A DNA stretch of 64,000 bases from Callorhinchus milii (lineage: Eukaryota), in contig NW_024704742.1 of the NCBI RefSeq assembly GCF_018977255.1, positions 38,564,001 through 38,628,000 on the forward strand. The letters run 5' to 3'. Under the pieces are notes generated by a model. That model saw only the letters and a list, made by a program, of their open reading frames with translations. It had not been told where the DNA came from and did no database searches. Each line of letters begins with the position of its first letter. Positions within the stretch are counted from its first letter, which is position 1. Position numbers and translations under genes: made by a program. This document shows, one piece after another, positions 1,097 through 42,341 of the stretch.

Positions 1097-2470
1097 TTAC
1101 CGATCAACTTCACCAAACACAATATCTTGTGTTCCTATAATCGCAACCACATCAGCTAACATGTGTCCCTGAGACATTTTATCAAGTCCGGCTAAATGAG
1201 CAAAACCGGGCGCTTTAATCTTACATCTATAAGGGCGACTTGTTCCATCTGACACTAAATACACTCCAAACTCCCCCTTTGGCGCTTCAATCGCTGTGTA
1301 AGTGGCCCCAGGCGGAACTTGATATCCCTCCGTATATAACTTAAAATGATGGATTAATGCTTCCATTGACTCCTTCATCTCGCTTCTCTTGGGAGGAGAG
1401 ATTTTAGCATCATCAACTTTGATCTCTCCCTCAGGCATCTTGTTCAGGGCCTGAAGTACAATCCTCAAACTCTGCCTCATCTCCTCCACCCGACACACAT
1501 AGCGATCATAACAATCTCCATTACTTCCTATGGGGACGTCGAATTCCACCTGGTCATAGGCATCGTAGGGTTGAGATTTTCTTAAATCCCATTTTATCCC
1601 AGATCCTCTTAACATCACCCCACTGAATCCATAATTCAACGCTTCCTGAGCTGTTATGACTCCAATATCAACCGTACGATTTTTCCAAATTCTGTTGTCT
1701 GTGAACATCTCCTCGACCTCATCAATTCGGATCGAGAAATTGGTCATAAAGGTGTATATATCGTCCATTAATCCGAGGGGAAGGTCCTGATGGACACCAC
1801 CAGGTCGGACATAAGCTGCGTGCATTCTGGCTCCGGAAACCCGCTCGTAGAATTCCAACATCTTTTCCCTCTCCTCGAACATCCAGAAAAATGGGGTCAT
1901 CGCCCCAATATCAAGAGCGTGTGTGGTTATGGCCATAATGTGGTTCAATATTCTGGTGATCTCTCCGAACAGGACTCTTATCCACTGAGCTCGAGGAGGT
2001 GGTCTGATGTTCAGCAGCTTCTCCACAGCGAGAGAATAGCACTGTTCATTGCACATCATAGACACGTAATCCAGTCTGTCAAAGTAGGGCAGGGCCTGCA
2101 GGTAGGTTTTAGCCTCGATCAGTTTCTCTGTCCCGCGGTGTAAGAGGCCGATGTGGGGGTCACACCGCTTGACCGACTCCCCACTCAACTCCATCACCAG
2201 CCTCAGGACACCATGAGCTGCCGGGTGTTGTGGCCCAAAGTTTACAGTCAGGGTAGAGACGGTTTTCTCTGCCGGAGGGTCTTTGTCGTTCCAGGGCGCA
2301 GGTTTCCACTTGATGTTGTTGTGATCGGGATACATGACGGCCCCGGAGTATTGCTGCATCCACTGCTCGTCCGGCTGCCACTGCTGAGCTCCTCGGCTGA
2401 TGGCGGCCCCGAGGCCCTGAAGAGGCGGGAGGAGGAGGCGCTGAGCTCGACATAGCCCGGCTCTCAGCAT
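1097..2470 (-). CDS. NDUFS2: Intronless NADH:ubiquinone oxidoreductase 49 kDa subunit (complex I), retrogene copy 1, 457 aa
   Basis: Single uninterrupted ORF with an Arg-rich N-terminal transit-like peptide. Carries [39 protein letters not shown] and C-terminal DIVFGEVDR. Confidence 0.96.
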
Positions 2471-3412
2471 CTCTTCTTTCTCTCCTCTCTCCTTCCCTCT
2501 CTCTCACTCCTTCCCCTCTCTCTCTCTCCTTCCCCTCTCTCTCTCTCCTTCCCCTTCTCTCTCTCCTTCCCTCTCTCTCACTCCTGCTCTCCTTCTCCTT
2601 CACCCTCCTTCCCTCTCTCTGTCTCTCTCACTCCTGCTCTCCTTCCCCCTCCTTCCCTCTCTCTCTCCTTCTCTTTCTCCTCTCTCTCTCTCACTCCTGC
2701 TCTCCGTCTCCTTCCCTCGCTCTCTCCTCTCTCTCCTTCCCCCCCCTCTCTCTCACTGCTGCTNNNNNNNNNNNNNNNNNNNNNNNNNNNNNNNNNNNNN
2801 NNNNNNNNNNNNNNNNNNNNNNNNNNNNNNNNNNNNNNNNNNNNNNNNNNNNNNNNNNNNNNNNNNNNNNNNNNNNNNNNNNNNNNNNNNNNNNNNNNNN
2901 NNNNNNNNNNNNNNNNNNNNNNNNNNNNNNNNNNNNNNNNNNNNNNNNNNNNNNNNNNNNNNNNNNNNNNNNNNNNNNNNNNNNNNNNNNNNNNNNNNNN
3001 NNNNNNNNNNNNNNNNNNNNNNNNNNNNNNNNNNNNNNNNNNNNNNNNNNNNNNNNNNNNNNNNNNNNNNNNNNNNNNNNNNNNNNNNNNNNNNNNNNNN
3101 NNNNNNNNNNNNNNNNNNNNNNNNNNNNNNNNNNNNNNNNNNNNNNNNNNNNNNNNNNNNNNNNNNNNNNNNNNNNNNNNNNNNNNNNNNNNNNNNNNNN
3201 NNNNNNNNNNNNNNNNNNNNNNNNNNNNNNNNNNNNNNNNNNNNNNNNNNNNNNNNNNNNNNNNNNNNNNNNNNNNNNNNNNNNNNNNNNNNNNNNNNNN
3301 NNNNNNNNNNNNNNNNNNNNNNNNNNNGTCCTTCCCCCTCTCCCTCCCTCTCTCTCTCCTTCCCCCCCTCTCTCCCCCTCTCTGTCTCCTTCCCCCTCTC
3401 CCCCTCTCTCCC
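2471..3412. repeat. Polypyrimidine/polypurine (CT/GA) tract abutting the NDUFS2 ATG; contains N gap 2764-3327
   Basis: CTCTCCTTCCC-type units on both sides of the gap. Confidence 0.9.
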
Positions 3413-3640
3413 CGACACAAGGTCACCACAAAATGGCGAGGCTGTGGTGAGAGCAGTGCATTCTGGGAATCTTTCTGCCTGAAACGCCTCCAGAACACAC
3501 AGTTGTCGGCGCTGCCATCGGGTGGAGGTTTTTGCAGCACTTTGTGTTGGATGTCAGGAGGGCAATAACTTGCACTTATTGGTTTGTTTAGTGCCAATCA
3601 TAGGGTAAGACGATGGTCTCATAAGTGCTCCATATAGATA

Positions 3641-3962
3641 ATAATAATAATAATCCTTGCATTTGATATAGCGCTTTTCACGTCGGGAGGACGTCCCAAA
3701 GCGCTTCACAGAACACACTGTAAAGTGAATTGACTGTATATTTGTGGGCGAACGCGGCAGCCAATTGCGCACAGCAATGTCCCACAAACAGTCGTAGATT
3801 GAAAATGACCAATTTATTATTGTTTTTGGTTTTGGAGGGATTATTATTAGGCTCTGTGTGGAGTAAGGAAACTTGCCCAAGGTTTCGCCCTCTGCCTGGA
3901 ATTGAACTCAGGTCTCTCGCTTGCAAAGCGAGTGCTCTAACCACTGAGCTACAGGACTCCAC
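3641..3962 (-). mobile_element. Full-length young tRNA-derived SINE, present in this array unit only
   Basis: Head GGAGTCCTGTAGCTCAGTGGTTAGAGCAC...GAGTTCAATTCC (A/B boxes) and (TTA)n tail. Flanked by AGATA at 3636-3640 and 3963-3967. Empty site at ~17670 and ~29715. Confidence 0.9.
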
Positions 3963-4162
3963 AGATAGTGGAGGAAAGACTGTCCAGGAGGGAAGTTTAT
4001 CAATGCCGCTTTGTAAATCACTGGTGTGACTGCACTTGGAATACTGTGTACAGTTATTATAATAATCCTCAAGTTAATAATCCCTCAAGAAATTTTTTTT
4101 TGCTCACTCAATCCACAATTGGCCGACAAGTTTTGCCCAATCAATATGCAGTCAATTCACTT

Positions 4163-4475
4163 GGAGTCCTGTAGCTCAGCGGTGAGAGCACTCGCTTTGC
4201 AAGTGAGAGACCTGAGTTCAATTCCAGGCAGAGGGCGAAACCTCGGGCAAGTTTCCTTACTCCACACAGAGCCTAATAATAATCCCTCCAAAACAAAAAC
4301 AATGATAAATTGGTCATTTTCAATCCACCACTGTTTGTGGGACATTGCTGTGCGCAATTGGCTGCCGCGTTCGCCCACAAATGTACAGCCAATTCATTTT
4401 ACAGTATATTCTTTGAAGCGCTTTGGGACGTCCTGTACCAAATGCAAGGATTATTATTATTATTATTATTATTAT
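4163..4475 (+). mobile_element. Full-length tRNA-derived SINE
   Basis: tRNA-like head and ...AAATGCAAGGATTATTATT tail. Counterpart at 17868-18181. Confidence 0.88.
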
Positions 4476-4481
4476 AACACG

Positions 4482-7619: not shown

Positions 7620-10600
7620 ATGAAGAAAATAAGCTTTTGGATGTGCATTCCCATTGCATTCCTGATTGTTGTCATCATTGGAATAATTACAGTGTAAGTT
7701 TACTTTCCTGCTCCTACTATCCTGTGTGAACTAGTCTGCAATTTGTTTTATTTAGTTACAATAAAATAGAGGTTGGACTTGTTCTTCTCCCTCTGCTGAG
7801 GATGTGAGTTACCTGTAGGTGGTTTGAAGCATTTGCATTGATGCCAAACTAAATAGAATTAACATTGTTCAAATGTTTAAAATCCAGCTGATAATTGAGA
7901 AGTTTACTTCTTGTTAAAACTCCAACCAATTTATTTAAATTTAAATATCTTTTGTTAGTTTATTTTTATTAATATTAAGAATATCAATGCATTGTACACC
8001 TGACAATACATGCTGTGAAGCTTTGTACCTGTGTGTGAGTGTGTGTGCCTCTCCGTCTCTCTCTCTCTACATCGACATTGAGGCTTTCTCCTCATGGTTC
8101 ATTCAGCGAGTTTATCCAGAGTATAGATGAGCCACGTGGACTATGAAGATCCCAGGTTTGATCCCCAGTCTGTACTGAGTTATAACCTTTTTAGATTGGT
8201 ATAGAAACCCCCATTATAATGAATTGACTGTTTCAGGTCCATAAGCCGTGAGGGGGGATAAAGCTAAATTGGCTGCCACAGTCACTTCCTGCAGGTTGCA
8301 CATGTGCACTATGAGCAAATGTATCAGCCAGGCTCAGTTGGTAGCACTCTCGCCTCCGAGTCAGAACATTGTGGGTTCAAGCTTCACATTGGAACCCATA
8401 TAGTCTATGCTGACCCTCCGATGCAGTGCTGGGGTTACGCCGCATTGTCAGACGTGACATCTTTCGGATGAGATGTTAAACCAAGGTCCCGTCTGCCTGT
8501 TCAGGTGGATGTTAAAGATTCCATGGCACGATTCGAAAGGAGAAGGGAGTTTCTGACAGTGTCCGGGCCAACAATTCCCCCAAGTAACGACCATTTAACA
8601 CTTCCCACAATCCAGTGTACTACAGCACTGCATTGGAGTATTAGTCCAGACTATGAAAAGTGCTGATGTGGGCTTGAACCCACAACAACACCAACTTGCA
8701 TTTATTTTGGCCCTTCACGCAAGTAACATCTTGGAGTGTTTAAAATGAATCTTCTGATTGAGAAATGAGTGCTACCAGCTGAGCCAGGCTGCCTTGACAT
8801 TTTGTAGTGTGTTTGGTGAACAGGTCCAACTCCAGCACATCTGGGGACCAGTCATTGTGTTAAAGTCACTAAAGTCAGTGCATGCATTTATTTGTGCCAT
8901 ATTAACATTGTTAGCAAGTCACAACACTGGAAGATGGGTCAGGTAATAATAATCCTTACATTTGATACAACAACAACAAGATTACATTTGTGCAGCACCT
9001 TATCACATCGTCGAGATGTCTCAAAGTGCTTCACAGGATATACTGTAAAGTGGATTGACTGTATTTTGTGGGCAAAACGTGCAGCCAGTTTGCTGTGGAG
9101 TGAGTGACCAATTTTTACTGGGGAATTTGTTGGTCAGGACAGTGGGAGAGTTACCCCTTTCTTTTCGAATGTGCCATAGGATCTTTAACATCCACCTAAT
9201 CAGGCAGATGGGACCTCGAATTAATGTCTCATCTGAAATGACGATACCTCCAACAATGTATCACCGCCCCCCAGAACTAGAATGTCAGCTTGGACTATGT
9301 GATCCCAAGTCCCGACATGGGATTTGAACCCACAATCTTCTGACTCAGAGACGAAAATGCTACTACTGCGCCAGGCTGACACACAGTCAATAGACAGGAG
9401 AGGTCTCCAGCAACAGTAGCATGGAGAACCAGCATCCCAATGGAATAATTCAGGTTTCACTACAAAAGGAAGGGAAGCCTAGAGAGGGGCCTAGAGGGAA
9501 ATAAGAGAAAGAAGATGGGAATAAAATACTCTGGATATGTTTTATTTTAGGATCATTTTAGACATGTCAAATTTTATTTTAAACAGATACGTAATAGCAA
9601 GGCAAGAGCAAAGGGTCTGTTCACTTGTTAGCACGTGAGTTAAATTTTTTTGGCCACATAATATCTTAACCTACATTACTTGGGCATAAATTTGTTTGGA
9701 AGGACTCGTGCCTGGAGGAGAATTTGGGGTATTGCCTTTGGCTGCTGGGCTCGGAATTAGGGAATCTCTGACAGGGATTTGTCTAACTGATCGGTATCCA
9801 GTAACCTTTTGCTGGAAATTATGTATGTGTGTGTGTGTGGCTGTTGGGTGATCGAGGGAGGGGTAATGTCTGGAATTGTTATGCTCTTAGGCTTAAGACC
9901 TTTGTATTAAAATTGGAGAAGACTATGCTGAGTTTGGGAAAATGGTCTTAAATTCAGTTTTAATTTGGAAACCCATTTTCCACAGTTCCTACTTGGTCCT
10001 GCAGAAAAATAACTCCTGAATTGAGACTGAATTGAAAATAGTTTTCCAAAATTCTGCATGATCTTTGGTTTGTAATGCAAGATTATGCAGAAGTTTGGAA
10101 AATTAATACATTCAGTCTGAATTCAGAAGCTGTTTTTCTGTTGTTCCTCCAAAGAGCTGAGTAAAATTAATTTTAAAAATCTTGCAAAATTCTGCCTGAT
10201 CTTATATTTTGAGTTAAGGAGATGCACGGTTGAGGGGGAGAGATGGAAGAGCAATAAAATGCAACATATAATTATTGAAATCTATTTACCCTGTAAGTAG
10301 ATTTGTTTCCATGTTGTATGACTGTAAATAACTGTATGTTAATCAAAACCAATTGTGTTTTCTTGCTGGTTTTTCTTATTGAATGTAGGCAAGAAAATTG
10401 TACATTGAAAACTCCCTTTATAAGGTACAGTAGACTTCTATGCAATGTATTTTATTCAGTTTCACCTCTTATTAGTTAATTCAATGTAATATTTTGGAAA
10501 ATCACTCTTTTTCTTTTGAAGTGTGACAGCTGAATATCCTCCTGGAAGCTATATTTTTGCGGAAACAATGTGCCTTGCAGCATTTTTAGGTAGGAAAAGA

Positions 10601-13600
10601 TTCTTAATATTTGCTTATTTGCATTCAGAGCTGTGTGCGAATGGCATTTATGTTGCGTAGAATTACAGAGATTGTTACAACACAGAAATGGGCATTCGGG
10701 CCAACTAATCCGTGCCAGTGGTTATATTTCAGGTGAGTCTCCATCTGTCCTAATACTCTCTCCCACCTCTTCTATGTTACCATCTGTGCTTGTTGAATGA
10801 CGGAAATTGGTCAGTTTATTTTCTTACTTGTTTCCCTTTCTCTTGTAAGGACACTGTTGCATCATTAGAGTTCTGTTGGTATTGGCTCCTCTTCAGTATA
10901 CCACGAAAGTGACTGTCATTAATGTTTAAACGTGAACAGTGATTGTGAATGAGAGCTATCATGGATGTGAGGGCAATGGAGCTGAGTCTGACTATGTCCT
11001 TTCCTATTGGCCACAGATCTGTTCTTTTGAGCTTAAAAAAAGGGAGAACAACACTGTAGCAATCTGAGTAGCAACGGAGTTGATTTTTCTTTACCCCTTT
11101 TCTTACCTTGGGGCACTGATGTCACTTTGCAGGATTGCTGACACAGTACTGACTGACATCAGCTGGGACCTGCCTGGTCTGAATTGGCTTTGAAATCTGT
11201 TTAACGAAAATGGATTCATTGAGCGAAGACATTAGTTTTTTATATTTAAAGAAGTAATAACTTCATTCTTTTTGAACTAGGTTCAGAAGTGAATCTTTAA
11301 TTTTCCTATTATAAGTGCATTTTTATAGGACTGAGAAGAGTAACCACAAAGGTGCTTGTGGAAAGAGAACATTGACAACTATTTTGAGACCAGCCAGATA
11401 ATAATTATAGTATTAAATAACCATCATTATTATAAGATAGATATCAGTGTTCTTTTCCAGTCCTGTTTGCCCTTTATTTCCATACGACTGGAAACTAACG
11501 TGAGTTAAGGTTGCTGAAGATATTGTTATTTGCTAAAAATTGATTTGTTCTACTTTTCCACCTCTTCCAGTGCTTGTAACCGCTGTATTACGGTTTACGA
11601 TACTTCAGACCATGACAAAGAATCAATTCAAGATACTTAACACCATTACGCTGGCATTGCTGTGTCTCGTGTGTGTTGGAATGACGATATTGGGCAATGT
11701 CCAGGTGTAGCTTTTCTGTTTCATTTTCCCAGGCGTATTAAGCAAGTTCCTTGTTACTGGTTCTGGGTGCAAAGCAGCTTTTAATCCTGTCCTTCTGTCA
11801 ATGTGATGTCAATGCATCGGCCAGTACTGCCTTGTGGACTTGGTGAGTTATTGATCTCAACCATGTGTCTGGCAGATCCCCAGTGGATATCTGGACCATC
11901 CCTGAGGTATCATTCAAACATAGAAATTCCTCAAGGTGGGGGTATGGAATCACTCGGGGTGGGGAGGTACACTCAGCTATCCTGATTTACAATACCCTAT
12001 CAAATGCAAATTTACACCCAATTGAAATTGGCTCATGTTGTTGTTTATGGGATGTGACTGGTGCGGATTAGCTGTCGCAACAAGCCAGGAAATTGTATTG
12101 AAAGATTGGGCATATTAACCCATAGAATGGTGGAACAGGCTTGTTGGACTGAATAGTCTCCTCCTGTTCCCATCAAAGTCAGGTCTACATCATTCTCTTT
12201 TAGATGTGTGGTATTAATAGTCAATAAGCAGCAGAATACCATTTGATCGTAGTTTGAGACGATGGCTTGATTTGTCTGGTGTAAAATTATCCAGTAATAA
12301 AATAATAATCCTTGCATTTTATATTGTGCGTTAAGACATCTTTGAAATGTCTCAAAGCGCTTCACAGAATATAACTGTAAAGTGAATTCACTGTATATTT
12401 TGTGGGCGAAATGCGGCAGCCAATTGCACACTTCATTGTCCCACAAAACAGTCGTGGATTGAGTGACCAAATTATTATTTTTATTTATTTATTTTGAAGG
12501 GATCGTTACCCATGGAAAAGTAAACAGTGAACCTCCATACAACATCAGATTCATTATTTTGTTAGTCTATATCAACATCTCCATTATTGGATTACTATTA
12601 TTGTAGTATGCGACTACCAGGATGGTAGAAGGCGATCTAGATAGACCTTGGTCTATTTCTTCTAGCATTTCCTGTGTTGCTATGTACTATACTTCTGGTC
12701 CATTTGCTTTTCCAGTTTACATTTATTTAAAAAAAATGCATAGGTTTCTAACTCTCCAGTGTCCAAGAAGATAAAGGCACCAACCACCTAGTTCAGTAAT
12801 CAGTGAGTCACATTAACCAGAAGGTGGCAGGTTTATAGTAATTCAGTTACAACTAAGATCAGGAACCATTAATTCACACAAAGGGTTGTGAAGATGTGGA
12901 ATGCTCTGCCCCAGAAAGCTATGGAGCCTGATTCAATAGGAATGTTTTAGGGAGAGGTATCCAGACACTTGGGGATTAAAGGTATAAAGGGGTAAGGAGA
13001 AAAGGTGGGGGATTGCGATTAAAAGATCTGACAATTGACTTGGGAGGAAGTGGGGGAAAAAGTTAGGGTATTAGCTCCTGATCACTATTGATGGATCATC
13101 TAAAACATAAATATAAGGATTATACTCAACGTAAACATTTATCTGCAGAAAAATTTGTTTGAATGTTGACTGCAGACATAAGTAGATTTGGCTTTTGTAG
13201 TGCATCACAGCCAAGCTCGATCATGTCTCCAGCCGTGTCCTTTCCCTTTCAGGTCAGGGAGCAATTATACCATCCGTAATGCCTCCCTGATCAGCTAACT
13301 CAGCACAGTCTCAGATGTGGATAGCAATATAAAGATTGTAAATGGTTATTTGATGGTTGAGGACCTTAAACGAAACAGGAATGTTAGTGAGCCTCTGAAT
13401 TATGAGTGATTTGTACTTGCACAGAGCAGCAGTTTTGTGACACAAATGGTATTTTATCCTTCCAGTTGTCCGTCAACAGTTTGTTGCATAATATCGGTGC
13501 CTACGCAGCCTTTGGAGTTGGATTAATAGCCTGTTGGACCAATTCTGTGCTGACATTCCACGCGAATATCCAAATGGAAGGGCGAATAATCGGGATCTTC

Positions 13601-14557
13601 CGTACTTTCCTTTCGTTCACAGCAACAATAGCCTTTATCCTGTGTATCCTTCATCCGTGTGTTAAGAAAAAAGGCAACAACATAGAAATCAGGACTCAAA
13701 TGCTCATTTTCTGACCCGCTGACCTTGGAAAGGTGAGTTTTATCAGTTCCTAACTCTTTACCTTCTTCATTTCCAGGACCTTAACCCAGAATTTGTTTCT
13801 CCCTCTGTTTTCATTTTAACCTTCATGCAATGTTGCCAGATTGAGTGGGTTCACACCCAATTTGGTGTGTTTTTGTTGTACTATGTGTGAGAAAACAGCT
13901 TTGGGTGGTGCCTCATTGTTATTTAATTTGAACCCTTTGACTACGTTTTCTTAGTTCCAAAAGCACTAACCTAAATTGGTCACTCTGATACCCATAGTAG
14001 GTAAGCAACACGTAATATTAGGCTACTTTTGGGCTAGTATTTGGTTGACTTTGGGCTACAAAAGTATTTTAATTTCTGGCCAATCTGACTTTGTTGTGTA
14101 CTGCATTATCAAATGCTGCTGTTCATGCAGACAACAAAGGCGAGAGTTTGGTTCAGCAGCTGGCACTTGCAACTCTGGGTCATGAATGAATTTCTGCTGT
14201 TCATTCTATGTGTCATGTGTAGCACACGGTGTTTTCAGCTTAAAGAAAGCAGTAGATGGATTTCATGTACTTAAGAAGAAAATTTATTAATTGCCAAAAG
14301 CAGTACAGTATCTGATAAGTATGGAAATATTTGCTGAATTTCCTTAACATATCTCCACAGATATGGTTTTACAAGGGATGGCTTCAGCAAAAGCCCAGTG
14401 GGCCTTGGTCATTCTCGTAAGTGTTTACATAGCATCACTTGCAATTGAATTGCGATTTTCCAACTTTCGGATTCACTTCTGGGATACAAGAAATAGTTCA
14501 GGAAACACGAATAAAGCGGGAGCACAAGTCATTCTGGCTGCAAACCTTGTTAGTTAA
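7620..14557 (+). CDS. TMEM150C: Diverged TMEM150C-like (DRAM/TMEM150 family) membrane protein, copy 1, 244 aa
   Basis: Coding exons 7620-7693, 9587-9634, 10389-10424, 10522-10589, 11571-11704, 13466-13643, 14361-14557 (735 nt, all GT-AG, phases consistent). Motifs PFISVTAEYPP, AVLRF, GMTILGNVQ, HNIG, NIQMEGRIIGIFR, AQWAL match TMEM150C. Convergent to ENOPH1, as in mammals. Confidence 0.85.
8325..8590 (+). mobile_element. Deu-domain-type SINE (AmnSINE1/SacSINE1-like)
   Basis: GGCTCAGTTGGTAGCACTCTCGCCTC head plus CTGCCTGTTCAGGTGGATGTTAAAGATTCCATGGCAC core. Related copies at ~8980-9385 (-), 40610-40960, 54063-54450 and in unit 2. Confidence 0.6.
13644..14360 (+). other. U12-type (minor spliceosome) GT-AG intron of TMEM150C-like copy 1
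   Basis: 5' splice site GTATCCTT at 13644. Branch point TTCCTTAAC at ~14340-14348, close to the CAG acceptor, with no long polypyrimidine tract. Confidence 0.85.
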
Positions 14558-15412: not shown

Positions 15413-16786
15413 TTACCGATCAACTTCACCAAACACAATATCTTGTGTTCCTATAATCGCAACCACATCAGCTAACATGTGTCCCTGAGACATTTTATCA
15501 AGTCCGGCTAAATGAGCAAAACCGGGCGCTTTAATCTTACATCTATAAGGGCGACTTGTTCCATCTGACACTAAATACACTCCAAACTCCCCCTTTGGCG
15601 CTTCAATCGCTGTGTAAGTGGCCCCAGGCGGAACTTGATATCCCTCCGTATATAACTTAAAATGATGGATTAATGCTTCCATTGACTCCTTCATCTCGCT
15701 TCTCTTGGGAGGAGAGATTTTAGCATCATCAACTTTGATCTCTCCCTCAGGCATCTTGTTCAGGGCCTGAAGTACAATCCTCAAACTCTGCCTCATCTCC
15801 TCCACCCGACACACATAGCGATCATAACAATCTCCATTACTTCCTATGGGGACGTCGAATTCCACCTGGTCATAGGCATCGTAGGGTTGAGATTTTCTTA
15901 AATCCCATTTTATCCCAGATCCTCTTAACATCACCCCACTGAATCCATAATTCAACGCTTCCTGAGCTGTTATGACTCCAATATCAACCGTACGATTTTT
16001 CCAAATTCTGTTGTCTGTGAACATCTCCTCGACCTCATCAATTCGGATCGAGAAATTGGTCATAAAGGTGTATATATCGTCCATTAATCCGAGGGGAAGG
16101 TCCTGATGGACGCCACCAGGTCGGACATAAGCTGCGTGCATTCTGGCTCCGGAAACCCGCTCGTAGAATTCCAACATCTTTTCCCTCTCCTCGAACATCC
16201 AGAAAAATGGGGTCATCGCCCCAATATCAAGAGCGTGTGTGGTTATGGCCATAATGTGGTTCAATATTCTGGTGATCTCTCCGAACAGGACTCTTATCCA
16301 CTGAGCTCGAGGAGGTGGTCTGATGTTCAGCAGCTTCTCCACAGCGAGAGAATAGCACTGTTCATTGCACATCATAGACACGTAATCCAGTCTGTCAAAG
16401 TAGGGCAGGGCCTGCAGGTAGGTTTTAGCCTCGATCAGTTTCTCTGTCCCGCGGTGTAAGAGGCCGATGTGGGGGTCACACCGCTTGACCGACTCCCCAC
16501 TCAACTCCATCACCAGCCTCAGGACACCATGAGCTGCCGGGTGTTGTGGCCCAAAGTTTACAGTCAGGGTAGAGACGGTTTTCTCTGCCGGAGGGTCTTT
16601 GTCGTTCCAGGGCGCAGGTTTCCACTTGATGTTGTTGTGATCGGGATACATGACGGCTCCGGAGTATTGCTGCATCCACTGCTCGTCCGGCTGCCACTGC
16701 TGAGCTCCTCGGCTGATGGCGGCCCCGAGGCCCTGAAGAGGCGGGAGGAGGAGGCGCTGAGCTCGACATAGCCCGGCTCTCAGCAN
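15413..16786 (-). CDS. NDUFS2: Intronless NDUFS2 retrogene copy 2 (first base of ATG falls in the N gap)
   Basis: Translation identical to copies 1 and 3 from Leu2 to the stop. Readable sequence ends ...CTCAGCA at 16785. Confidence 0.93.
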
Positions 16787-17445
16787 NNNNNNNNNNNNNN
16801 NNNNNNNNNNNNNNNNNNNNNNNNNNNNNNNNNNNNNNNNNNNNNNNNNNNNNNNNNNNNNNNNNNNNNNNNNNNNNNNNNNNNNNNNNNNNNNNNNNNN
16901 NNNNNNNNNNNNNNNNNNNNNNNNNNNNNNNNNNNNNNNNNNNNNNNNNNNNNNNNNNNNNNNNNNNNNNNNNNNNNNNNNNNNNNNNNNNNNNNNNNNN
17001 NNNNNNNNNNNNNNNNNNNNNNNNNNNNNNNNNNNNNNNNNNNNNNNNNNNNNNNNNNNNNNNNNNNNNNNNNNNNNNNNNNNNNNNNNNNNNNNNNNNN
17101 NNNNNNNNNNNNNNNNNNNNNNNNNNCCCTCTCTNNNNNNNNNNNNNNNNNNNNNNNNNNNNNNNNNNNNNNNNNNNNNNNNNNNNNNNNNNNNNNNNNN
17201 NNNNNNNNNNNNNNNNNNNNNNNNNNNNNNNNNNNNNNNNNNNNNNNNNNNNNNNNNNNNNNNNNNNNNNNNNNNNNNNNNNNNNNNNNNNNNNNNNNNN
17301 NNNNNNNNNNNNNNNNNNNNNNNNNNNNNNNNNNNNNNNNNNNNNNCCCCCTCTCCCTCTCTCTGTCCTTCCCCCTCTCTCCCTCTCTGTCTCCTTCCCC
17401 CTCTCTCTCCCCCCTCTCTCCTTCCCCCTCTCCCCCTCTCTCCCC
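16786..17445. repeat. CT/GA tract, largely replaced by N gaps (16786-17126, 17135-17346)
   Basis: Residual CT-rich sequence flanks the gaps. Same position as the tracts in the other units. Confidence 0.85.
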
Positions 17446-17867
17446 GACACAAGGTCACCACAAAATGGCGAGGCTGTGGTGAGAGCAGTGCATTCTGGGA
17501 ATCTTTCTGCCTGAAACGCCTCCAGAACACACAGTTGTCGGCGCTGCCATCGGGTGGAGGTTTTTGCAGCACTTTGTGTTGGATGTCAGGAGGGCAATAA
17601 CTTGCACTTATTGGTTTGTTTAGTGCCAATCATAGGGTAAGACGATGGTCTCATAAGTGCTCCATATAGATAGTGGAGGAAAGACTGTCCAGGAGGGAAG
17701 TTTATCAATGCCGCTTTGTAAATCACTGGTGTGACTGCACTTGGAATACTGTGTACAGTTATTATAATAATCCTCAAGTTAATAATCCCTCAAGAAATTT
17801 TTTTTTGCTCACTCAATCCACAATTAGCCGACAAGTTTTGCCCAATCAATATGCAGTCAATTCACTT

Positions 17868-18181: not shown

Positions 18182-18384
18182 AACACGCAGCAGGTCAGGC
18201 AGCATCTATGGAGAAAGGAAAGGGAATGAACGTTTCGGGTGCACGACCCTTCGTGAAGACGCAATCGTGGACCCCAAACATTGACTGACTTTCCTTTCCT
18301 TTCTCCGCGGATGCTGCCTGACCTGCTGAGCCCTCCCAGTGATCTCGGGCTCTGCTCCGGATTTCCAGCGTTGAGCGCCTTTGC

Positions 18385-18556
18385 CGAAGTGGGAATGACC
18401 TGTCAGTTGCGCGGCACCGCCCACCCGACATCCGAGGCCGCTGATTGGTCCGAGCGTCTGTCAGTCAGGACGCGGCCCCAATGAGACAGGCGAGGAGGCG
18501 GCTGCGCGTCAGCATCACGTGGGGTCAGGGGCGGTGAGGAAGGCACAAGGTAACGG
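18385..18556 (+). promoter_or_regulatory. CpG-rich promoter and probable non-coding exon 1 of TMEM150C-like copy 2
   Basis: Same CCAAT, E-box and GC-box set as 4680-4850. Donor AAG|GTAACG at 18549/18550. Confidence 0.6.
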
Positions 18557-18814
18557 TCTGTCTCGACAGCCGCTTCGAACAGGAGACGGTGGTGATCGCA
18601 CTCACACTCACACACTGGGGTCACACCAACATCGGGCGGTGACTCACGTATCGCCTTTCACACGGTAACGACAATAACTTGACGGTGGAGGGGGGGGTCG
18701 GCCGAGGCGACGGTCGAAGAGGAAGGCCTTCGGGTGCGACCTGAAGGTGGGGGAGGGGAGGGCCCAGGGGGAGGGGGAGAATGTTCTAGAGTTTCGGGGG
18801 GGGGGGGGGGGTGT

Positions 18815-19962: not shown

Positions 19963-22900
19963 ATGAAGAAAATAAGCTTTTGGATGTGCATTCCCATTGC
20001 ATTCCTGATTGTTGTCATCATTGGAATAATTACACTGTAAGGTTACTTTCCTGCTCCTACTATCCTGTGTGAACTAGTCTGCAATTTGTTTTATTTAGTT
20101 ACAATAAATTAGAGGTTGGACTATCCTTCTCCCTCTGCTGAGGATGTGAGTTATCTGTAGGTGGTTTGAAGCATTTTCTTTGATGCCAAACTAAATAGAA
20201 TTAACGTTGTTCAAATGTTTAAAATCCAGCTGATAATTGAGAAGTTTACTTCTTGTTAAAACTCCAACCAATTTATTTAAATTTAAATATCTTTTGTTAG
20301 TTTATTTTTATTAATATTAAGAATATCAATGCATTGTACACCTGACAATACATGCTGTGAAGCTTTGTACCTGTGTGTGAGTGTGTGTGCCTCTCCGTCT
20401 CTCTCTCTCTACATCGACATTGAGGCTTTCTCCTCATGGTTCATTCAGCGAGTTTATCCAGAGTATAGATGAGCCACGTGGACTATGAAGATCCCAGGTT
20501 TGATCCCCAGTCTGTACTGAGTTATAACCTTTTTAGATTGGTATAGAAACCCCCATTATAATGAATTGACTGTTTCAGGTCCATAAGCCGTGAGGGGGGA
20601 TAAAGCTAAATTGGCTGCCACAGTCACTTCCTGCAGGTTGCACATGTGCACTATGAGCAAATGTATCAGCCAGGCTCAGTTGGTAGCACTCTCGCCTCTG
20701 AGTCAGAACATTGTGGGTTCAAGCTTCACATTGGAACCCATATAGTCTATGCTGACCCTCCGATGCAGTGCTGGGGTTACGCCGCATTGTCAGACGTGAC
20801 ATCTTTCGGAAGAGATGTTAAACCAAGGTCCCGTCTGCCTGTTCAGGTGGATGTTAAAGATTCCATAGCACGATTCGAAAGGAGAAGGGAGTTTCTGACA
20901 GTGTCCGGGCCAACAATTCCCCCAAGTAACGACCATTTAACACTTCCCACAATCCAGTGTACTACAGCACTGCATTGGAGTATTAGTCCAGACTATGAAA
21001 AGTGCTGATGTGGGCTTGAACCCACAACAACACCAACTTGCATTTATTTTGGCCCTTCACGCAAGTAACATCTTGGAGTGTTTAAAATGAATCTTCTGAT
21101 TGAGAAATGAGTGCTACCAGCTGAGCCAGGCTGCCTTGACATTTTGTAGTGTGTTTGGTGAACAGGTCCAACTCCAGCACATCTGGGGACCAGTCATTGT
21201 GTTAAAGTCACTAAAGTCAGTGCATGCATTTATTTGTGCCATATTAACATTGTTAGCAAGTCACAACACTGGAAGATGGGTCAGGTAATAATAATCCTTA
21301 CATTTGATACAACAACAACAAGATTACATTTGTACAGCACCTTATCACATCGTCGAGATGTCTCAAAGTGCTTCACAGGATATACTGTAAAGTGGATTGA
21401 CTGTATTTTGTGGGCAAAACGTGCAGCCAGTTTGCTGTGGAGTGAGTGACCAATTTTTACTGGGGAATTTGTTGGTCAGGACAGTGGGAGAGTTACCCCT
21501 TTCTTTTCGAATGTGCCATAGGATCTTTAACATCCACCTAATCAGGCAGATGGGACCTCGAATTAATGTCTCATCTGAAATGACGATACCTCCAACAATG
21601 TATCACCGCCCCCCAGAACTGGAATGTCAGCTTAGACTATGTGATCCCAAGTCCCGACATGGGATTTGAACCCACAATCTTCTGACTCAGAGACGAAAAT
21701 GCTACTACTGCCCAAGGCTGACACACAGTCAATAGACAGGAGAGGTCTCCAGCAACAGTAGCATGGAGAACCAGCATCCCAATGGAATAATTCAGGTTTC
21801 ACTACAAAAGGAAGGGAAGCCTAGAGAGGGCCTAGAGGGAAATAAGAGAAAGAAGATGGGAATAAAATACTCTGGATATGTTTTATTTTAGGATCATTTT
21901 AGACATGTCAAATTTTATTTTAAACAGATACGTATTAGCAAGACAACAGCAAAGGATCTGTTCACTTGTTAGCACGTGAGTTAAATTTTTTTGGCCACAT
22001 ATATCTTAACCTACATTACTTGGGCATAAATTTGTTTGGAAGGACTCGTGCCTGGAGGAGAATTTGGGGTATTGCTTTTGGCTGCTGGGCTCGGGATTAG
22101 GGAATCTCTGACAGGGATTTGTCTAACTGATCGGTATCCAGTAACCTTTTGCTGGAAATTATGTATGTGTGTGTGTGTGGCTGTTGGGTGATCGAGGGAG
22201 GGGTAATGTCTGGAATTGTTATGCTCTTAGGCTTAAGACCTTTGTATTAAAATTGGAGAAGACTATGCTGAGTTTGGGAAAATGGTCTTAAATTCAGTTT
22301 TAATTTGGAAACCCATTTTCCACAGTTCCTACTTGGTCCTGCAGAAAAATAACTCCTGAATTGAGACTGAATTGAAAATAGTTTTCCAAAATTCTGCATG
22401 ATCTTTGGTTTGTAATGCAAGATTATGCAGAAGTTTGGAAAATTAATACATTCAGTCTGAATTCAGAAGCTGTTTTTCTGTTGTTCCTCCAAAGAGCTGA
22501 GTAAAATTAATTTTAAAAATCTTGCAAAATTCTGCCTGATCTTATATTTTGAGTTAAGGAGATGCACGGTTGAGGGGGAGAGATGGAAGAGCAATAAAAT
22601 GCAACATATAATTATTGAAATCTATTTACCCTGTAAGTAGATTTGTTTCCATGTTGTACGACTGTATATAACTGTATGTTAATCAAAACCAATTGTGTTT
22701 TCTTGCTGGTTTTTCTTATTGAATGTAGGCAAGAAAATTGTACATTGAAAACTCCCTTTATAAGGTACAGTAGACTTCTATGCAATGTATTTTATTCAGT
22801 TTCAACTCTTATTAGTTAATTCAATGTAATATTTTGGAAAATCACTCTTTTTCTTTTGAAGTGTGACAGCTGAATATCCTCCTGGAAGCTATATTTTTGC

Positions 22901-25900
22901 GGAAATAATGTGCCTTGCAGCATTTTTAGGTAGGAAAAGATTCTTAATATTTGCTTATTTGCATTCAGAGCTGTGTGCGAATGGCATTTATGTTGCGTAG
23001 AATTACATAGATTGTTACATCACAGAAATGGGCATTCGGGCCAACTAATCCGTGCCAGTGGTTATATTTCAGGTGAGTCTCCATCTGTCCTAATACTCTC
23101 TCCCACCTCTTCTATGTTACCATCTGTGCTTGTTGAATGACGGAAATTGGTCAGTTTATTTTCTTACTTGTTTCCCTTTCTCTTGTAAAGACACTGTTGC
23201 ATCATTAGAGTTCTGTTGGTATTGGCTCCTCTTCAGTATACCACGAAAGTGACTGTCATTAATGTTTAAACGTGAACAGTGATTGTGAGTGAGAGCTATC
23301 ATGGCTGTGAGGGCAATGGAGCTGAGTCTGACTATGTCCTTTCCTATTGACCACAGATCTGTTCTTTTGAGCTTTAAAAAAAGGGAGAACAACACTAGCA
23401 ATCTGAGTAGCAACGGAGTTGATTTTTCTTTACCCCTTTTCTTACCTTGGGGCACTGATGTCACTTTGCAGGATTGCTGACACAGTACTGACTGACATCA
23501 GCTGGGACCTGCCTGGTCTGAATTGGCTTTGAAATCTGTTTAACGAAAATGGATTCATTGAGCGAAGACATTAGTTTTTTATATTTAAAGAAGTAATAAC
23601 TTCATTCTTTTTGAACTAGGTTCAGAAGTGAATCTTTAATTTTCCTATTATAAGTGCATTTTTATAGGACTGAGAAGAGTAACCACAAAGGTGCTTGTGG
23701 AAAGAGAACATTGACAACTATTTTGAGACCAGCCAGATAATAATTATAGTATTAAATAACCATCATTATTATAAGATAGATATCAGTGTTCTTTTCCAGT
23801 CCTGTTTGCCCTTTATTTCCATACGACTGGAAACTAACGTGAGTTAAGGTTGCTGAAGATATTGTTATTTGCTAAAAATTGATTTGTTCTACTTTTCCAC
23901 CTCTTCCAGTGCTTGTAACCGCTGTATTACGGTTTACGATACTTCAGACCATGACAAAGAATCAATTCAAGATACTTAACACCATTACGCTGGCAATGCT
24001 GTGTCTCGTGTGTGTTGGAATGACGATATTGGGCAATGTCCAGGTGTAGCTTTTCTGTTTCATTTTCCCAGGCGTATTAAGCAAGTTCCTTGTTACTGGT
24101 TCTGGGTGCAAAGCAGCTTTTAATCCTGTCCTTCTGTCAATGTGATGTCAATGCATCGGCCAGTACTGCCTTGTGGACTTGGTGAGTTATTGATCTCAAC
24201 CATGTGTCTGGCAGATCCCCAGTGGATATCTGGACCATCCCTGAGGTATCATTCAAACATAGAAATTCCTCAAGGTGGGGGTATGGAATCACTCGGGGTG
24301 GGGAGGTACACTCAGCTATCCTGATTTACAATACCCTATCAAATGCAAATTTACACCCAATTGAAATTGGCTCATGTTGTTGTTTATGGGATGTGACTGG
24401 TGCGGATTAGCTGTCGCAACAAGCCAGGAAATTGTATTGAAAGATTGGGCATATTAACCCATAGAATGGTGGAACAGGCTTGTTGGACTGAATAGTCTCC
24501 TCCTGTTCCCATCAAAGTCAGGTCTACATCATTCTCTTTTAGATGTGTGGTATTAATAGTCAATAAGCAGCAGAATACCATTTGATCGTAGTTTGAGACG
24601 ATGGCTTGATTTGTCTGGTGTAAAATTATCCAGTAATAAAATAATAATCCTTGCATTTTATATTGTGCGTTAAGACATCTTTGAAATGTCTCAAAGCGCT
24701 TCACAGAATATAACTGTAAAGTGAATTCACTGTATATTTTGTGGGCGAAATGCGGCAGCCAATTGCACACTTCATTGTCCCACAAAACAGTCGTGGATTG
24801 AGTGACCAAATTATTATTTTTATTTATTTATTTTGAAGGGATCGTTACCCATGGAAAAGTAAACAGTGAACCTCCATACAACATCAGATTCATTATTTTG
24901 TTAGTCTATATCAACATCTCCATTATTGGATTACTATTATTGTAGTATGCGACTACCAGGATGGTAGAAGGCGATCTAGATAGACCTTGGTCTATTTCTT
25001 CTAGCATTTCCTGTGTTGCTATGTACTATACTTCTGGTCCATTTGCTTTTCCAGTTTACATTTATTTAAAAAAAATGCATAGGTTTCTAACTCTCCAGTG
25101 TCCAAGAAGATAAAGGCACCAACCACCTAGTTCAGTAATCAGTGAGTCACATTAACCAGAAGGTGGCAGGTTTATAGTAATTCAGTTACAACTAAGATCA
25201 GGAACCATTAATTCACACAAAGGGTTGTGAAGATGTGGAATGCTCTGCCCCAGAAAGCTATGGAGCCTGATTCAATAGGAATGTTTTAGAGAGAGGTATC
25301 CAGACACTTGGGGATTAAAGGTATAAAGGGGTAAGGAGAAAAGGTGGGGGATTGCGATTAAAAGATCTGACAATTGACTTGGGAGGAAGTGGGGGAAAAA
25401 GTTAGGGTATTAGCTCCTGATCACTATTGATGGATCATCTAAAACATAAATGTAAGGATTATACTCAACGTAAAAATTTATCTGCAGAAAAATTTGTTTG
25501 AATGTTGACTGCAGACATAAGTAGATTTGGCTTTTGTAGTGCATCACAGCCAAGCTCGATCATGTCTCCAGCCGTGTCCTTTCCCTTTCAGGTCAGGGAG
25601 CAATTATACCATCCGTAATGCCTCCCTGATCAGCTAACTCAGCACAGTCTCAGATGTGGATAGCAATATAAAGATTGTAAATGGTTATTTGATGGTTGAG
25701 GACCTTAAACGAAACAGGAATGTTAGTGAGCCTCTGAATTATGAGTGATTTGTACTTGCACAGAGCAGCAGTTTTGTGACACAAATGGTATTTTATCCTT
25801 CCAGTTGTCCGTCAACCGTTTGTTACATAATATCGGTACCTACACAGCCTTTGGAGTTGGATTAATAGCCTGTTGGACCAATTCTGTGCTGACATTCCAC

Positions 25901-26900
25901 GCGAATATCCAAATGGAAGGGCGAATAATCGGGATCTTCCGTACTTTCCTTTCGTTCACAGCAACAATAGCCTTTATCCTGTGTATCCTTCATCCGTGTG
26001 TTAAGAAAAAAGGCAACAGCATAGAAATCAGGACTCAAATGCTCATTTTCTGACCCGCTGACCTTGGAAAGGTGAGTTTTATCAGTTCCTAACTCTTTAC
26101 CTTCTTCATTTCCAGGACCTTAACCCTGAATTTGTTTCTCCCTCTGTTTTCATTTTAACCTTCATGCAATGTTGCCAGATTGAGTGGGTTCACACCCAAT
26201 TTGGTGTGTTTTTGTTGTACTATGTGTGAGAAAACAGCTTTGGGTGGTGCCTAATTGTTAAAGTTTTAATTTGAACCCTTTGACGACGTTTTCTTAGTTC
26301 CAAAAGCACTAACCTAAATTGGTCACTCTGATACCCATAGTAGGTAAGCAACACGTAATATTAGGCTACTTTTGGGCTAGTATTTGGTTGACTTTGGGCT
26401 ACAAAAGTATTTTAATTTCTGGCCAATCTGACTTTGTTGTGTACTGCATTATCAAATGCTGCTGTTCATGCAGACAACAAAGGCGAGAGTTTGGTTCAGC
26501 AGCTGGCACTTGCAACTCTGGGTCATGAATGAATTTCTGCTGTTCATTCTATGTGTCATGTGTAGCACACGGTGTTTTCAGCTTAAAGAAAGCAGTAGAT
26601 GGATTTCATGTACTTAAGAAGAAAATTTATTAATTGCCAAAAGCAGTACAGTATCTGATAAGTATGGAAATATTTGCTGAATTTCCTTAACATATCTCCA
26701 CAGATATGGTTTTCCAAGGGTTGGCTTCAGCAAAAGCCCAGTGGGCCTTGGTCATTCTCGTAAGTGTTTACATAGCATCACTTGCAATTGAATTGCGATT
26801 TTACAACTTTCAGATTCACTTCTGGGATATAAGAAATAGTTCAGGAAACACGAATAAAGCGGGTGCACGAGTCATTCCGGCTGCAAACCTTGTTAGTTAA
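19963..26900 (+). CDS. TMEM150C: Diverged TMEM150C-like protein, copy 2, 244 aa
   Basis: Coding exons 19963-20036, 21928-21975, 22729-22764, 22862-22929, 23910-24043, 25805-25982, 26704-26900. Frame and splice sites intact. U12 intron at 25983-26703. Confidence 0.85.
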
Positions 26901-27749
26901 ACATGCAGTATTTGTCCTGTAAAGAGTACAGAATAGTGACAGGGAATACTGTCAGTTTTCACTTTGAATATTATTGTTGAGTTTTGTTTTTCAAAGAACA
27001 GTATATTCTGTATAACTAACTATTTAACTCCATTACTGATCTTCCTTGGTCAGACTGTTCTTTGATATCAAGCGGGTAAGGGTGCCCCTATCTGGAGAAG
27101 CAGTATTTGCACACTGCAGAGTCACTAGGTTTTGACTCTTACCAACCTGCATCGAATACATTCTGGAATAAGGCAAACAAGCTGAGTCCATTCGGGAGAA
27201 TGGGTAGTCGATTTCAAACACAGAGAAATTTCATGTGTAGGTGACATACATATGTGAAACTCTGTCCAGTTTGGATACTCTTAATAATAATAATTATCCG
27301 TGAATTTGATACAGCACCTCAAACGTCTCAAAGCGCTTCACAGAATATCCTGTAAAGTTAATTGAATGTATATTTTGTTGGTGAAATGTGTTAGCCAATT
27401 GCATACAGCAGTATCCCACAAACATGATGATGGGTTTCTGCACTACTCCAGATAGATATTCCTTCCACTTTGAGTAATGTTATTGAAATAGGGCTTCTGA
27501 ATTTGGTAGGATGTAAAAGTGAAAATAATAAATAATAATTTACATTTGATATAGCGCATTATCATGTCTTCGATACGTCTCAAAACGCTTCAAAGAATAT
27601 ACTGTAAAGTGAATTCATTGTATATTTTGTAGGCGAAACGCAGGAGCCAATTGCGCACAGCAGCGTCCCACAAACAGATGTGGATTGAGTGACCGCATTA
27701 TTATTATTTTTATTAATATACTGTAATATTGAATTATTTCCAGCGTTGT

Positions 27750-29123
27750 TTACCGATCAACTTCACCAAACACAATATCTTGTGTTCCTATAATCGCAAC
27801 CACATCAGCTAACATGTGTCCCTGAGACATTTTATCAAGTCCGGCTAAATGAGCAAAACCGGGCGCTTTAATCTTACATCTATAAGGGCGACTTGTTCCA
27901 TCTGACACTAAATACACTCCAAACTCCCCCTTTGGCGCTTCAATCGCTGTGTAAGTGGCCCCAGGCGGAACTTGATATCCCTCCGTATATAACTTAAAAT
28001 GATGGATTAATGCTTCCATTGACTCCTTCATCTCGCTTCTCTTGGGAGGAGAGATTTTAGCATCATCAACTTTGATCTCTCCCTCAGGCATCTTGTTCAG
28101 GGCCTGAAGTACAATCCTCAAACTCTGCCTCATCTCCTCCACCCGACACACATAGCGATCATAACAATCTCCATTACTTCCTATGGGGACGTCGAATTCC
28201 ACCTGGTCATAGGCATCGTAGGGTTGAGATTTTCTTAAATCCCATTTTATCCCAGATCCTCTTAACATCACCCCACTGAATCCATAATTCAACGCTTCCT
28301 GAGCTGTTATGACTCCAATATCAACCGTACGATTTTTCCAAATTCTGTTGTCTGTGAACATCTCCTCGACCTCATCAATTCGGATCGAGAAATTGGTCAT
28401 AAAGGTGTATATATCGTCCATTAATCCGAGGGGAAGGTCCTGATGGACGCCACCAGGTCGGACATAAGCTGCGTGCATTCTGGCTCCGGAAACCCGCTCG
28501 TAGAATTCCAACATCTTTTCCCTCTCCTCGAACATCCAGAAAAATGGGGTCATCGCCCCAATATCAAGAGCGTGTGTGGTTATGGCCATAATGTGGTTCA
28601 ATATTCTGGTGATCTCTCCGAACAGGACTCTTATCCACTGAGCTCGAGGAGGTGGTCTGATGTTCAGCAGCTTCTCCACAGCGAGAGAATAGCACTGTTC
28701 ATTGCACATCATAGACACGTAATCCAGTCTGTCAAAGTAGGGCAGGGCCTGCAGGTAGGTTTTAGCCTCGATCAGTTTCTCTGTCCCGCGGTGTAAGAGG
28801 CCGATGTGGGGGTCACACCGCTTGACCGACTCCCCACTCAACTCCATCACCAGCCTCAGGACACCATGAGCTGCCGGGTGTTGTGGCCCAAAGTTTACAG
28901 TCAGGGTAGAGACGGTTTTCTCTGCCGGAGGGTCTTTGTCGTTCCAGGGCGCAGGTTTCCACTTGATGTTGTTGTGATCGGGATACATGACGGCTCCGGA
29001 GTATTGCTGCATCCACTGCTCGTCCGGCTGCCACTGCTGAGCTCCTCGGCTGATGGCGGCCCCGAGGCCCTGAAGAGGCGGGAGGAGGAGGCGCTGAGCT
29101 CGACATAGCCCGGCTCTCAGCAT
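27750..29123 (-). CDS. NDUFS2: Intronless NDUFS2 retrogene copy 3 (array-terminal), 457 aa
   Basis: Complete ORF, protein identical to copy 1. AATAAA (plus-strand TTTATT at 27709-27714) lies ~36 nt past the stop. Confidence 0.96.

Positions 29124-31951: not shown

Positions 31952-42341
<10,390 letters not shown>

What the first reader, a model, noticed from the sequence alone, without database searches (positions are those of the whole stretch)
1097..29123. Intronless NDUFS2 with identical protein in all three copies: a functional retrogene, perhaps replacing the parent
Seen: 457-aa ORF with a transit-like peptide and intact quinone-site motifs ([14 protein letters not shown]). The only differences I found between copies are two silent Gly-codon changes in copy 1 (~1796 and ~2342). 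No obvious poly(A) tail or target-site duplication remains. Known: vertebrate NDUFS2 is multi-exon. Inference: an old retrogene under purifying selection and/or homogenisation, in contrast to its neighbour in the same unit.
Basis: partly seen in the sequence, partly recalled or inferred. Interest (0 to 1): 0.7.

Follow-up and report, generated by a model that had tools for sequence, protein, structure and literature searches.

The report
Intronless NDUFS2 retrogene in elephant shark
In the elephant shark a core gene of mitochondrial respiration (NDUFS2) has no introns, sits far from its usual neighbours and is tandemly repeated, so it is most likely an old, working mRNA-derived copy that may have replaced the original gene.

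Summary
Observation confirmed: three intronless 457-codon NDUFS2 frames, one protein, two silent Gly changes in copy 1; copy 2's first base lies in an N gap. RefSeq names on the neighbouring gene make this the elephant shark. The gene sits between TMEM150C and ENOPH1, a block with no NDUFS2 in cattle; human and pufferfish NDUFS2 lies by FCER1G. That fits retroposition. It looks old and working: 87-89% identical to other vertebrates, ordinary branch length, one full-length contig in each of two runs guessed to be RNA (one 3' contig ends 16 nt after AATAAA), and a gap-free, 96% identical 433-nt piece in a related species' DNA. Its 3' UTR runs antisense over TMEM150C's last exon. The copies belong to a 12-14 kb tandem unit whose TMEM150C evolves fast (16 amino-acid changes between two copies). 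At least two copies are real; the middle one may be a haplotype duplicate. Loss of the parent is likely (about 0.65) but untested: no genome was held and no shark orthologue surfaced. Not found in print or in earlier scan notes; two other retrogenes were noted in this genome. A new member of a known kind.

The parts
1097..2470 (-). NDUFS2 retrogene copy 1, single coding exon, 457 aa; carries the two letters seen in both RNA-type contigs
15413..16786 (-). NDUFS2 copy 2; first base of the start codon falls in an N gap; otherwise identical to copy 3
27750..29123 (-). NDUFS2 copy 3, next to ENOPH1; keeps the unique flank, so probably the edge copy of the array
26610..27749 (-). Inferred 3' UTR of NDUFS2 (copy 3 coordinates), about 1.1 kb, through two SINEs and antisense over the last TMEM150C exon; AATAAA at 26626-26631
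   Evidence: contigs of runs X1 and X2; signal position
14267..15412 (-). Same inferred 3' UTR for copy 2; AATAAA at 14283-14288
   Evidence: homology
29123..29381 (.). CT/GA low-complexity tract directly upstream of the start codon; the matching tracts of copies 1 and 2 run into assembly gaps (2764-3327, 16786-17126, 17135-17346)
29382..29746 (.). Upstream block of copy 3; 18 of 253 aligned bases differ from copy 2's block and it is 106 bases longer; the duplicated unit ends near 29746
17347..17700 (.). Upstream block of copy 2 and tandem junction (near 17700) to the next TMEM150C promoter region
3328..3995 (.). Upstream block of copy 1, 0 of 253 bases different from copy 2's, with a private SINE insertion at about 3636-3962 flanked by a 5-base repeat
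47..243 (+). Last exon of a third TMEM150C-type copy, tail to tail with NDUFS2 copy 1; the rest lies left of the window if it exists
7620..14557 (+). TMEM150C copy A, 7 coding exons, 244 aa, identical to RefSeq XP_042197217.1; last intron has U12-type ends (consensus recalled)
19963..26900 (+). TMEM150C copy B, 244 aa, identical to RefSeq XP_042196663.1; 16 amino-acid and 3 silent changes against copy A
18200..18800 (.). CpG island (GC 0.56-0.66, CpG o/e 0.82-1.04), probable TMEM150C promoter, about 1.4-2 kb upstream of NDUFS2 copy 2, head to head; counterpart near 4500-5100 for copy 1
   Evidence: counterpart by homology
31955..42443 (-). ENOPH1, five exon-bearing frames matching TIGR01691; ends about 2.8 kb upstream of NDUFS2 copy 3 on the same strand
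43729..59546 (+). hnRNP D-family gene, head to head with ENOPH1 (HNRNPDL by that arrangement; name recalled)

Best explanation
A spliced NDUFS2 mRNA was reverse-transcribed and inserted between TMEM150C and ENOPH1 before the elephant shark and a related species (organism B) split. It gained a promoter upstream and a poly(A) signal 1.1 kb downstream, inside the last intron of TMEM150C, and now supplies the 49-kDa quinone-site subunit of mitochondrial complex I. The intron-bearing parent was probably lost (orphan retrogene). Much later a 12-14 kb unit holding TMEM150C plus the retrogene was duplicated in tandem. NDUFS2 is the passenger: its protein is held fixed by purifying selection, helped by exchange between copies, while TMEM150C diversifies. 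Shown: no introns, intact protein, foreign position, at least two copies. Likely: transcription, age. Inferred: retroposition as the route, promoter, loss of the parent.
For: Whole frame continuous, and the human intron site at c.866 (PMC2947428) maps to 1622/28275 with no intron. Neighbours are TMEM150C, ENOPH1 and an hnRNP D-family gene; the cattle list for that block has nine entries and no NDUFS2 (PMC13491712), while NDUFS2 is linked to the FcR-gamma gene in human and pufferfish (PMC4536121). Mature protein 86.7-88.8% identical to six other vertebrates, with His82, His86, Arg112, Tyr135, Asp187 matching the bovine chain. Tree of 29 rows: sister to 21 bony-vertebrate rows (97/89), end branch 0.18. 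Runs X1 and X2 (two studies, RNA by guess) each give one contig over the whole frame with 2 other letters, both copy-1 type; at all seven listed sites in the frame the total depth equals that one contig; an X1 contig ends at 26610, 16 bases after AATAAA. Run X19 (organism B, DNA by guess) gives 433 bases over codons 322 to the stop plus 22 bases of flank with 16 differences and no gap, while its three listed TMEM150C pieces carry 19-35 differences in 176-216 bases. Copy 1 against copy 2: 0 changes in 1071 replacement sites, 16 in 853 flanking bases (Fisher p 2e-6), 2 in 300 silent sites. Third-position GC falls from 150 of 228 codons to 99 of 229 along the gene, which fits long residence.
Against: The genome could not be searched for a parent. 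Contigs show presence, not absence, and human-like contigs are dropped: organism A's own DNA contigs are missing from part of the frame in X5, so a parent could be hidden the same way. In X5 two to four diverged contigs lie on the frame at listed sites; only the longest is shown (85% alike, 7 gaps, continuous, so a decayed processed copy), and the others could be parent exons. No run is on record as RNA, and the X2 contigs stop short of the AATAAA end. X19 covers only the last third of the frame, and that the 433 bases span several vertebrate introns is recalled, not from a call. No shark or ray NDUFS2 appeared, so the age has no upper bound. Three nearly invariant residues are changed (Ala120 for Tyr in 168 of 171 rows, Phe256 for Leu in 170, Val325 for Leu in 169). 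A 1294-base run without change also occurs in a TMEM150C intron, so the 1529-base identity of copies 2 and 3 is not special, and the p-values assume even rates.
Confidence: 0.65

Rival explanations
1. Working retrogene, but the intron-bearing parent survives elsewhere (for example on a GC-rich, poorly assembled small chromosome) and both are used.
For: No genome search was possible. The read filter can drop conserved contigs, and several diverged X5 contigs on the frame are not shown in full. Carelli et al. report that most retrogenes coexist with their parent (PMC4772013).
Against: In both RNA-type runs one contig accounts for all depth at the listed sites at 80% likeness, weak but as expected for a single expressed form of a housekeeping gene. 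The protein shows no clear speed-up.
Confidence: 0.25
2. On copy number only: the true array has two copies, and the middle unit (3328-16785) is the other haplotype placed in tandem, which alone explains why copies 2 and 3 are identical.
For: That stretch is one whole unit bounded on both sides by gaps in the same CT tract. Non-coding difference between units A and B is 44 in 8057 bases. In X5 total depth at listed unit sites runs from 10.8 to 36.6, against 9.15 for the decayed copy and 11 for the copy-3-type upstream letter; at 17643 and 18431 only one contig is laid (depth is a poor copy count).
Against: A and B differ by 16 amino acids in TMEM150C, 50 of 1416 bases in the promoter region, a private SINE and about 1.4 kb missing in B between two similar repeats, which is much for two alleles. 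It cannot reduce the count to one: the gap-free stretch 17347-64000 holds two upstream blocks, and three versions of the last TMEM150C exon exist.
Confidence: 0.3
3. The gene moved as DNA and lost its introns afterwards by recombination with its own cDNA.
For: No poly(A) remnant or target-site duplication is left.
Against: Needs two rare steps and loss of every intron; no flank or neighbour of the old site is seen here; decayed processed copies show that this mRNA is retroposed in this lineage.
Confidence: 0.07
4. A recent, silent processed copy that has not yet decayed.
For: No run is on record as RNA, so expression is not formally shown.
Against: Organism B holds a 96% identical gap-free piece that includes flank past the stop; full-length contigs in two studies; no replacement change between copies; base-composition gradient.
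Confidence: 0.03

Closest known systems
Vertebrate NDUFS2, 49-kDa core subunit of complex I (for example bovine chain 7qsd_D)
   Same: 430-aa mature chain, 86.7% identical to bovine, same residues at the quinone site and at the methylated arginine (roles recalled; quinone-site location also in bioRxiv 10.1101/2025.07.08.663799, passages).
   Different: No coding introns, other neighbours, tandem copies, shorter leader (27 against 33 residues), three changes at nearly invariant sites.
Orphan retrogenes of mammals (25 human cases in PMC3548309; 10 families in PMC4772013; passages read)
   Same: Single coding exon, foreign site, strong purifying selection, housekeeping role.
   Different: Neither main text mentions an NDUF gene; parents of mammalian orphans are reported as lowly expressed, whereas NDUFS2 is a core respiratory gene. 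Absence of the parent, the defining test, was not run here.
Amphioxus SYCP1 retrogene replacement (PMC5803294; abstract and outline only)
   Same: Retrocopy inserted beside unrelated genes in a slowly evolving chordate.
   Different: There the parent's loss and a shared two-way promoter are reported. Here a head-to-head position with a CpG island exists only for the inner copies and was made by the tandem duplication; its use is untested.
Tandem arrays under concerted evolution (general knowledge)
   Same: Patchy identity; edge block of copy 3 differs by 18 of 253 bases while its frame equals copy 2; database TMEM150C proteins P0202-P0204 are mosaics of A and B.
   Different: Mosaics and identity can also come from assembly; no conversion tract was shown.

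Membership tests
NDUFS2 / complex I 49-kDa subunit | PF00346 above cut-off, full-length mature chain | tested here: met
   425.9 bits, cut-off 24; residues 28-457 align to 1-430 of solved chains
NDUFS2 / complex I 49-kDa subunit | Quinone-site and methylated residues (bovine mature His55, His59, Arg85, Tyr108, Asp160; roles recalled) | tested here: met
   His82, His86, Arg112, Tyr135, Asp187
NDUFS2 / complex I 49-kDa subunit | Import into mitochondria and assembly into complex I | not testable with these tools
   leader composition only
Retrogene | Coding introns of the orthologues absent | tested here: met
   continuous frame; human c.866 site empty; other intron positions recalled
Retrogene | Lies away from the ancestral site | tested here: met
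   TMEM150C-ENOPH1 block against FcR-gamma linkage; judged from bony vertebrates only
Retrogene | Intact frame under purifying selection | tested here: met
Retrogene | Transcribed | tested here: inconclusive
   full-length contigs in two runs that are RNA by guess only; one 3' end fits AATAAA
Recent retrocopy | Poly(A) remnant and target-site duplication | tested here: not met
   so not filed as recent
Orphan retrogene | No functional intron-bearing parent in the genome | not testable with these tools
   no genome held
Orphan retrogene | No second NDUFS2 transcript | tested here: inconclusive
   one contig per run at 80% likeness, but contigs and the filter cannot show absence
Concerted evolution of tandem copies | Conversion tracts shown with phased copies or an outgroup | tested here: inconclusive
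   patchy identity; assembly effects not excluded

The most novel reading that the evidence does not exclude
Chimaeras run complex I solely on a retroposed NDUFS2, the parent being lost; the later tandem duplication, driven by a fast-evolving TMEM150C, raised its copy number and set the inner copies head to head with the TMEM150C CpG island, so that these, not the original edge copy, now give most transcripts, whose 3' UTR also overlaps TMEM150C antisense. Both RNA-type runs show copy-1/2-type letters and none of the five copy-3-only letters that are listed or covered, but majority-path contigs would give that from copy number alone.
Probability: 0.2. Interest if true: 0.65.

Novelty: new member of a known kind. 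Interest (0 to 1): 0.45.

Why it matters
If the parent is gone, an essential, highly expressed core subunit of complex I has been handed over to a retrocopy in the slowest-evolving vertebrate genome (PMC3964593, passages), against the reported trend that replaced parents are lowly expressed. It would give a natural case of how a respiratory gene regains broad expression with new regulatory DNA, relevant to NDUFS2's role in oxygen sensing, and a warning that elephant shark NDUFS2 does not mark the ancestral site. The unit also pairs a frozen gene with a fast-evolving one, a clean test of selection against homogenisation. The kind of event is known, so the surprise is moderate.

Tried and rejected
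Whole-genome search for a parent: no genome held. Search with residues 1-75 for cartilaginous-fish relatives: 15 candidates, none at E 0.001. Cluster look-ups (at most 15 members listed per cluster) and the best 120 of 8000 homologues showed no shark or ray NDUFS2; this says nothing about their genes. Run search: no RNA holder listed. Parts without cover, not counted as evidence: X1 and X2 have no or almost no depth in repeat-free TMEM150C bins (introns and exons 1-6 alike), and X19 has none over 28370-29122. Joints and loose ends were swamped by repeats, so the tandem junction, the 5' end and splice joints could not be read; 40 of 590 letter rows and 32 of about 175,000 pieces were shown. Copy counting from X5 depth gave 1 to 3 and was not relied on; my notebook's 'about 3' overstated it. 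Motifs resembling YY1 and ERR sites upstream of copies 1 and 2 and altered in copy 3 (consensus recalled, picked after the fact, no chance test) are a lead only. Read-through from ENOPH1 was considered: six AATAAA/ATTAAA words lie between; untested. Papers: no paper holds both NDUFS2 and Callorhinchus; two unrelated ones hold NDUFS2 and retrogene (listing only); none for NDUFS2, FCER1G, synteny, shark at three of four terms; searches showed nothing on this locus in their listings. The supplement of PMC3964593 gave no hit for any term, even 'heterozygosity', so it was effectively unseen and may bear on duplications. PMC9024903 (passages) only confirms the mouse block. Earlier scan notes: none on this locus or gene.
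Full report
Observation. Three minus-strand frames (1097-2470, 15413-16786, 27750-29123) encode the same 457-aa protein; copies 2 and 3 are identical, copy 1 differs by two silent Gly changes at 1796 and 2342, and the first base of copy 2 is in an N gap. The protein is NDUFS2: PF00346 at 425.9 bits, mature part 86.7-88.8% identical to cattle, Xenopus, lungfish, alligator, chicken and tilapia, with His82, His86, Arg112, Tyr135 and Asp187 matching the bovine chain (their roles are recalled). In a tree of 29 chosen rows it is sister to the 21 bony-vertebrate rows (97/89) with an end branch of 0.18, not flagged as long. Three nearly invariant sites differ (Ala120, Phe256, Val325).

Organism and surroundings. 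The neighbouring gene is letter for letter the RefSeq TMEM150C and TMEM150C-like proteins of Callorhinchus milii. The order is TMEM150C (+), NDUFS2 (-), repeated, then ENOPH1 (-; five frames match TIGR01691 among 76 scanned) and an hnRNP D-family gene (+). In cattle the list of genes around this block has HNRNPD, HNRNPDL, ENOPH1 and TMEM150C and no NDUFS2 (PMC13491712, passages); NDUFS2 is linked to the FcR-gamma gene in human and pufferfish (PMC4536121, passage). Human NDUFS2 has an intron after c.866 (PMC2947428, passage); that site maps to 1622 and 28275 and is uninterrupted. An intronless frame in a foreign block is what retroposition leaves. No poly(A) run or target-site repeat remains, and third-position GC falls from 66% to 43% between the two halves (p 1.5e-6); both fit an old insertion.

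Expression. Of 24 listed runs none is on record as RNA, so what follows is likely, not shown. I laid four on 17450-29122 at 80% likeness. X1 and X2, from two studies and guessed to be RNA, each give one contig over the whole frame (1496 and 1420 bases), each with the two copy-1 letters. Further contigs continue past the stop; one of X1 ends at 26610, 16 bases after an AATAAA on the NDUFS2 strand, whereas those of X2 stop near 26725. This points to a 3' UTR of about 1.1 kb that overlaps the last TMEM150C exon antisense. The 3' UTR letters are a mix of copy-1 and copy-2 types. The 5' end is unknown: a GA tract and assembly gaps lie directly upstream.

Age. Run X19 (organism B, DNA by guess; probably another chimaera, by inference from its likeness) gives 433 bases from codon 322 through the stop and 22 bases beyond, with 16 differences and no gap; its three listed TMEM150C pieces, partly intronic, carry 19-35 differences in 176-216 bases. 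So an intronless, constrained copy exists in B, at least for the last third; that this third spans several vertebrate introns is recalled. Run X5 (organism A) shows a 614-base piece, 90 differences and 7 gaps, continuous over codons 249-453: a decayed processed copy elsewhere.

The parent. It could not be sought in the genome. In X1 and X2 one contig accounts for all depth at the seven listed sites in the frame, as expected if only one form is expressed. But contigs cannot show absence, human-like contigs are filtered (the locus's own contigs are missing from part of the frame in X5), and some diverged X5 contigs were not shown. No shark or ray orthologue surfaced. I put loss of the parent near 0.65-0.7.

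The copies. The unit is 12-14 kb and ends near 3995, 17700 and 29746. At least two copies are real: the gap-free stretch from 17347 holds two upstream blocks that differ at 18 of 253 bases and by 106 bases, and three versions of the last TMEM150C exon exist. The middle unit is bounded by gaps in the same tract on both sides and could be a second haplotype; against that stand 16 amino-acid changes, 50 of 1416 promoter-region differences, a private SINE and a 1.4-kb loss. X5 depth (10.8-36.6 on unit sites, 9-11 on presumed single pieces) allows one to three and decides nothing.

Why one protein. Copy 1 against copy 2: 0 of 1071 replacement sites, 2 of 300 silent sites, 16 of 853 flanking bases (p 2e-6 against the flank, 0.048 against silent sites); copy 1 against copy 3 is similar with 13 of 853. 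The flank holds SINEs and may overstate the neutral rate. Copies 2 and 3 would be expected to differ at about 5.8 replacement sites (p 0.003), but a 1294-base unchanged run also lies in an intron, so exchange between copies or haplotype duplication can explain it. TMEM150C does the opposite: 16 of 562 replacement sites against 44 of 8057 non-coding bases (p 9e-7), though not significant against its 3 silent changes (p 0.59); its nearest 50%-cluster representatives are about 35-45% identical.

Mechanism. Retroposition, gain of a promoter and of a poly(A) signal, probable loss of the parent, then tandem duplication with TMEM150C. The duplication put the inner copies head to head with a CpG island that copy 3 lacks; whether they use it is untested.

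Known and new. Orphan retrogenes are a described class (PMC3548309, PMC4772013, passages; amphioxus SYCP1, PMC5803294, abstract). My ten searches of the open library showed nothing on this locus, though the protein is in public databases. Earlier scan notes report other retrogenes in this genome (unchecked) but not this one. Verdict: real, an old and most likely working retrogene, a candidate orphan; new member of a known kind; interest 0.45.

Noticed in passing
window 7620-14557 and 19963-26900: TMEM150C is strongly diverged (nearest cluster representatives about 35-45% identical) and its two copies differ by 16 replacement and 3 silent changes, five times the non-coding rate; run X5 shows two more replacement letters in exon 4 (22874, 22885). 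Looks like diversifying selection.
   Followed up: partly
window 13644-14360 and 25983-26703: Last TMEM150C intron has U12-type ends (GTATCCTT donor, TTCCTTAAC branch site; consensus recalled); the NDUFS2 poly(A) signal lies inside it on the other strand.
   Followed up: partly
run X5, record 32 laid on 27766-28379; run X19, record 16 on 27783-27925: Diverged, gapped, continuous NDUFS2 pieces: decayed processed copies elsewhere in both organisms.
   Followed up: no
window 5115-6785 against 18816-19127: Unit B lacks about 1.4 kb present in A between two 80% alike repeats and carries one mixed repeat instead: probably loss by recombination between the repeats.
   Followed up: partly
window 3636-3962 and 61825-62146: Young SINE private to copy 1's upstream block with a 5-base flanking repeat, 99.4% identical to a copy at 61825-62146: a recently active family.
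   Followed up: partly
window 3415-3440, 17455-17480 against 29385-29410: Words resembling YY1 and ERR sites (recalled consensus) stand side by side upstream of copies 1 and 2; both are changed in copy 3.
   Followed up: no
proteins P0202-P0204: Other database versions of elephant shark TMEM150C are mosaics of copies A and B: collapsed assembly or exchange between copies.
   Followed up: partly
window 57398-58219: 24-base tandem array (about 17 copies) and CA-rich repeats in an intron of the hnRNP D-family gene.
   Followed up: no
window 33060-34340: LINE-like fragment of about 1.3 kb in an ENOPH1 intron (recognised by eye).
   Followed up: no
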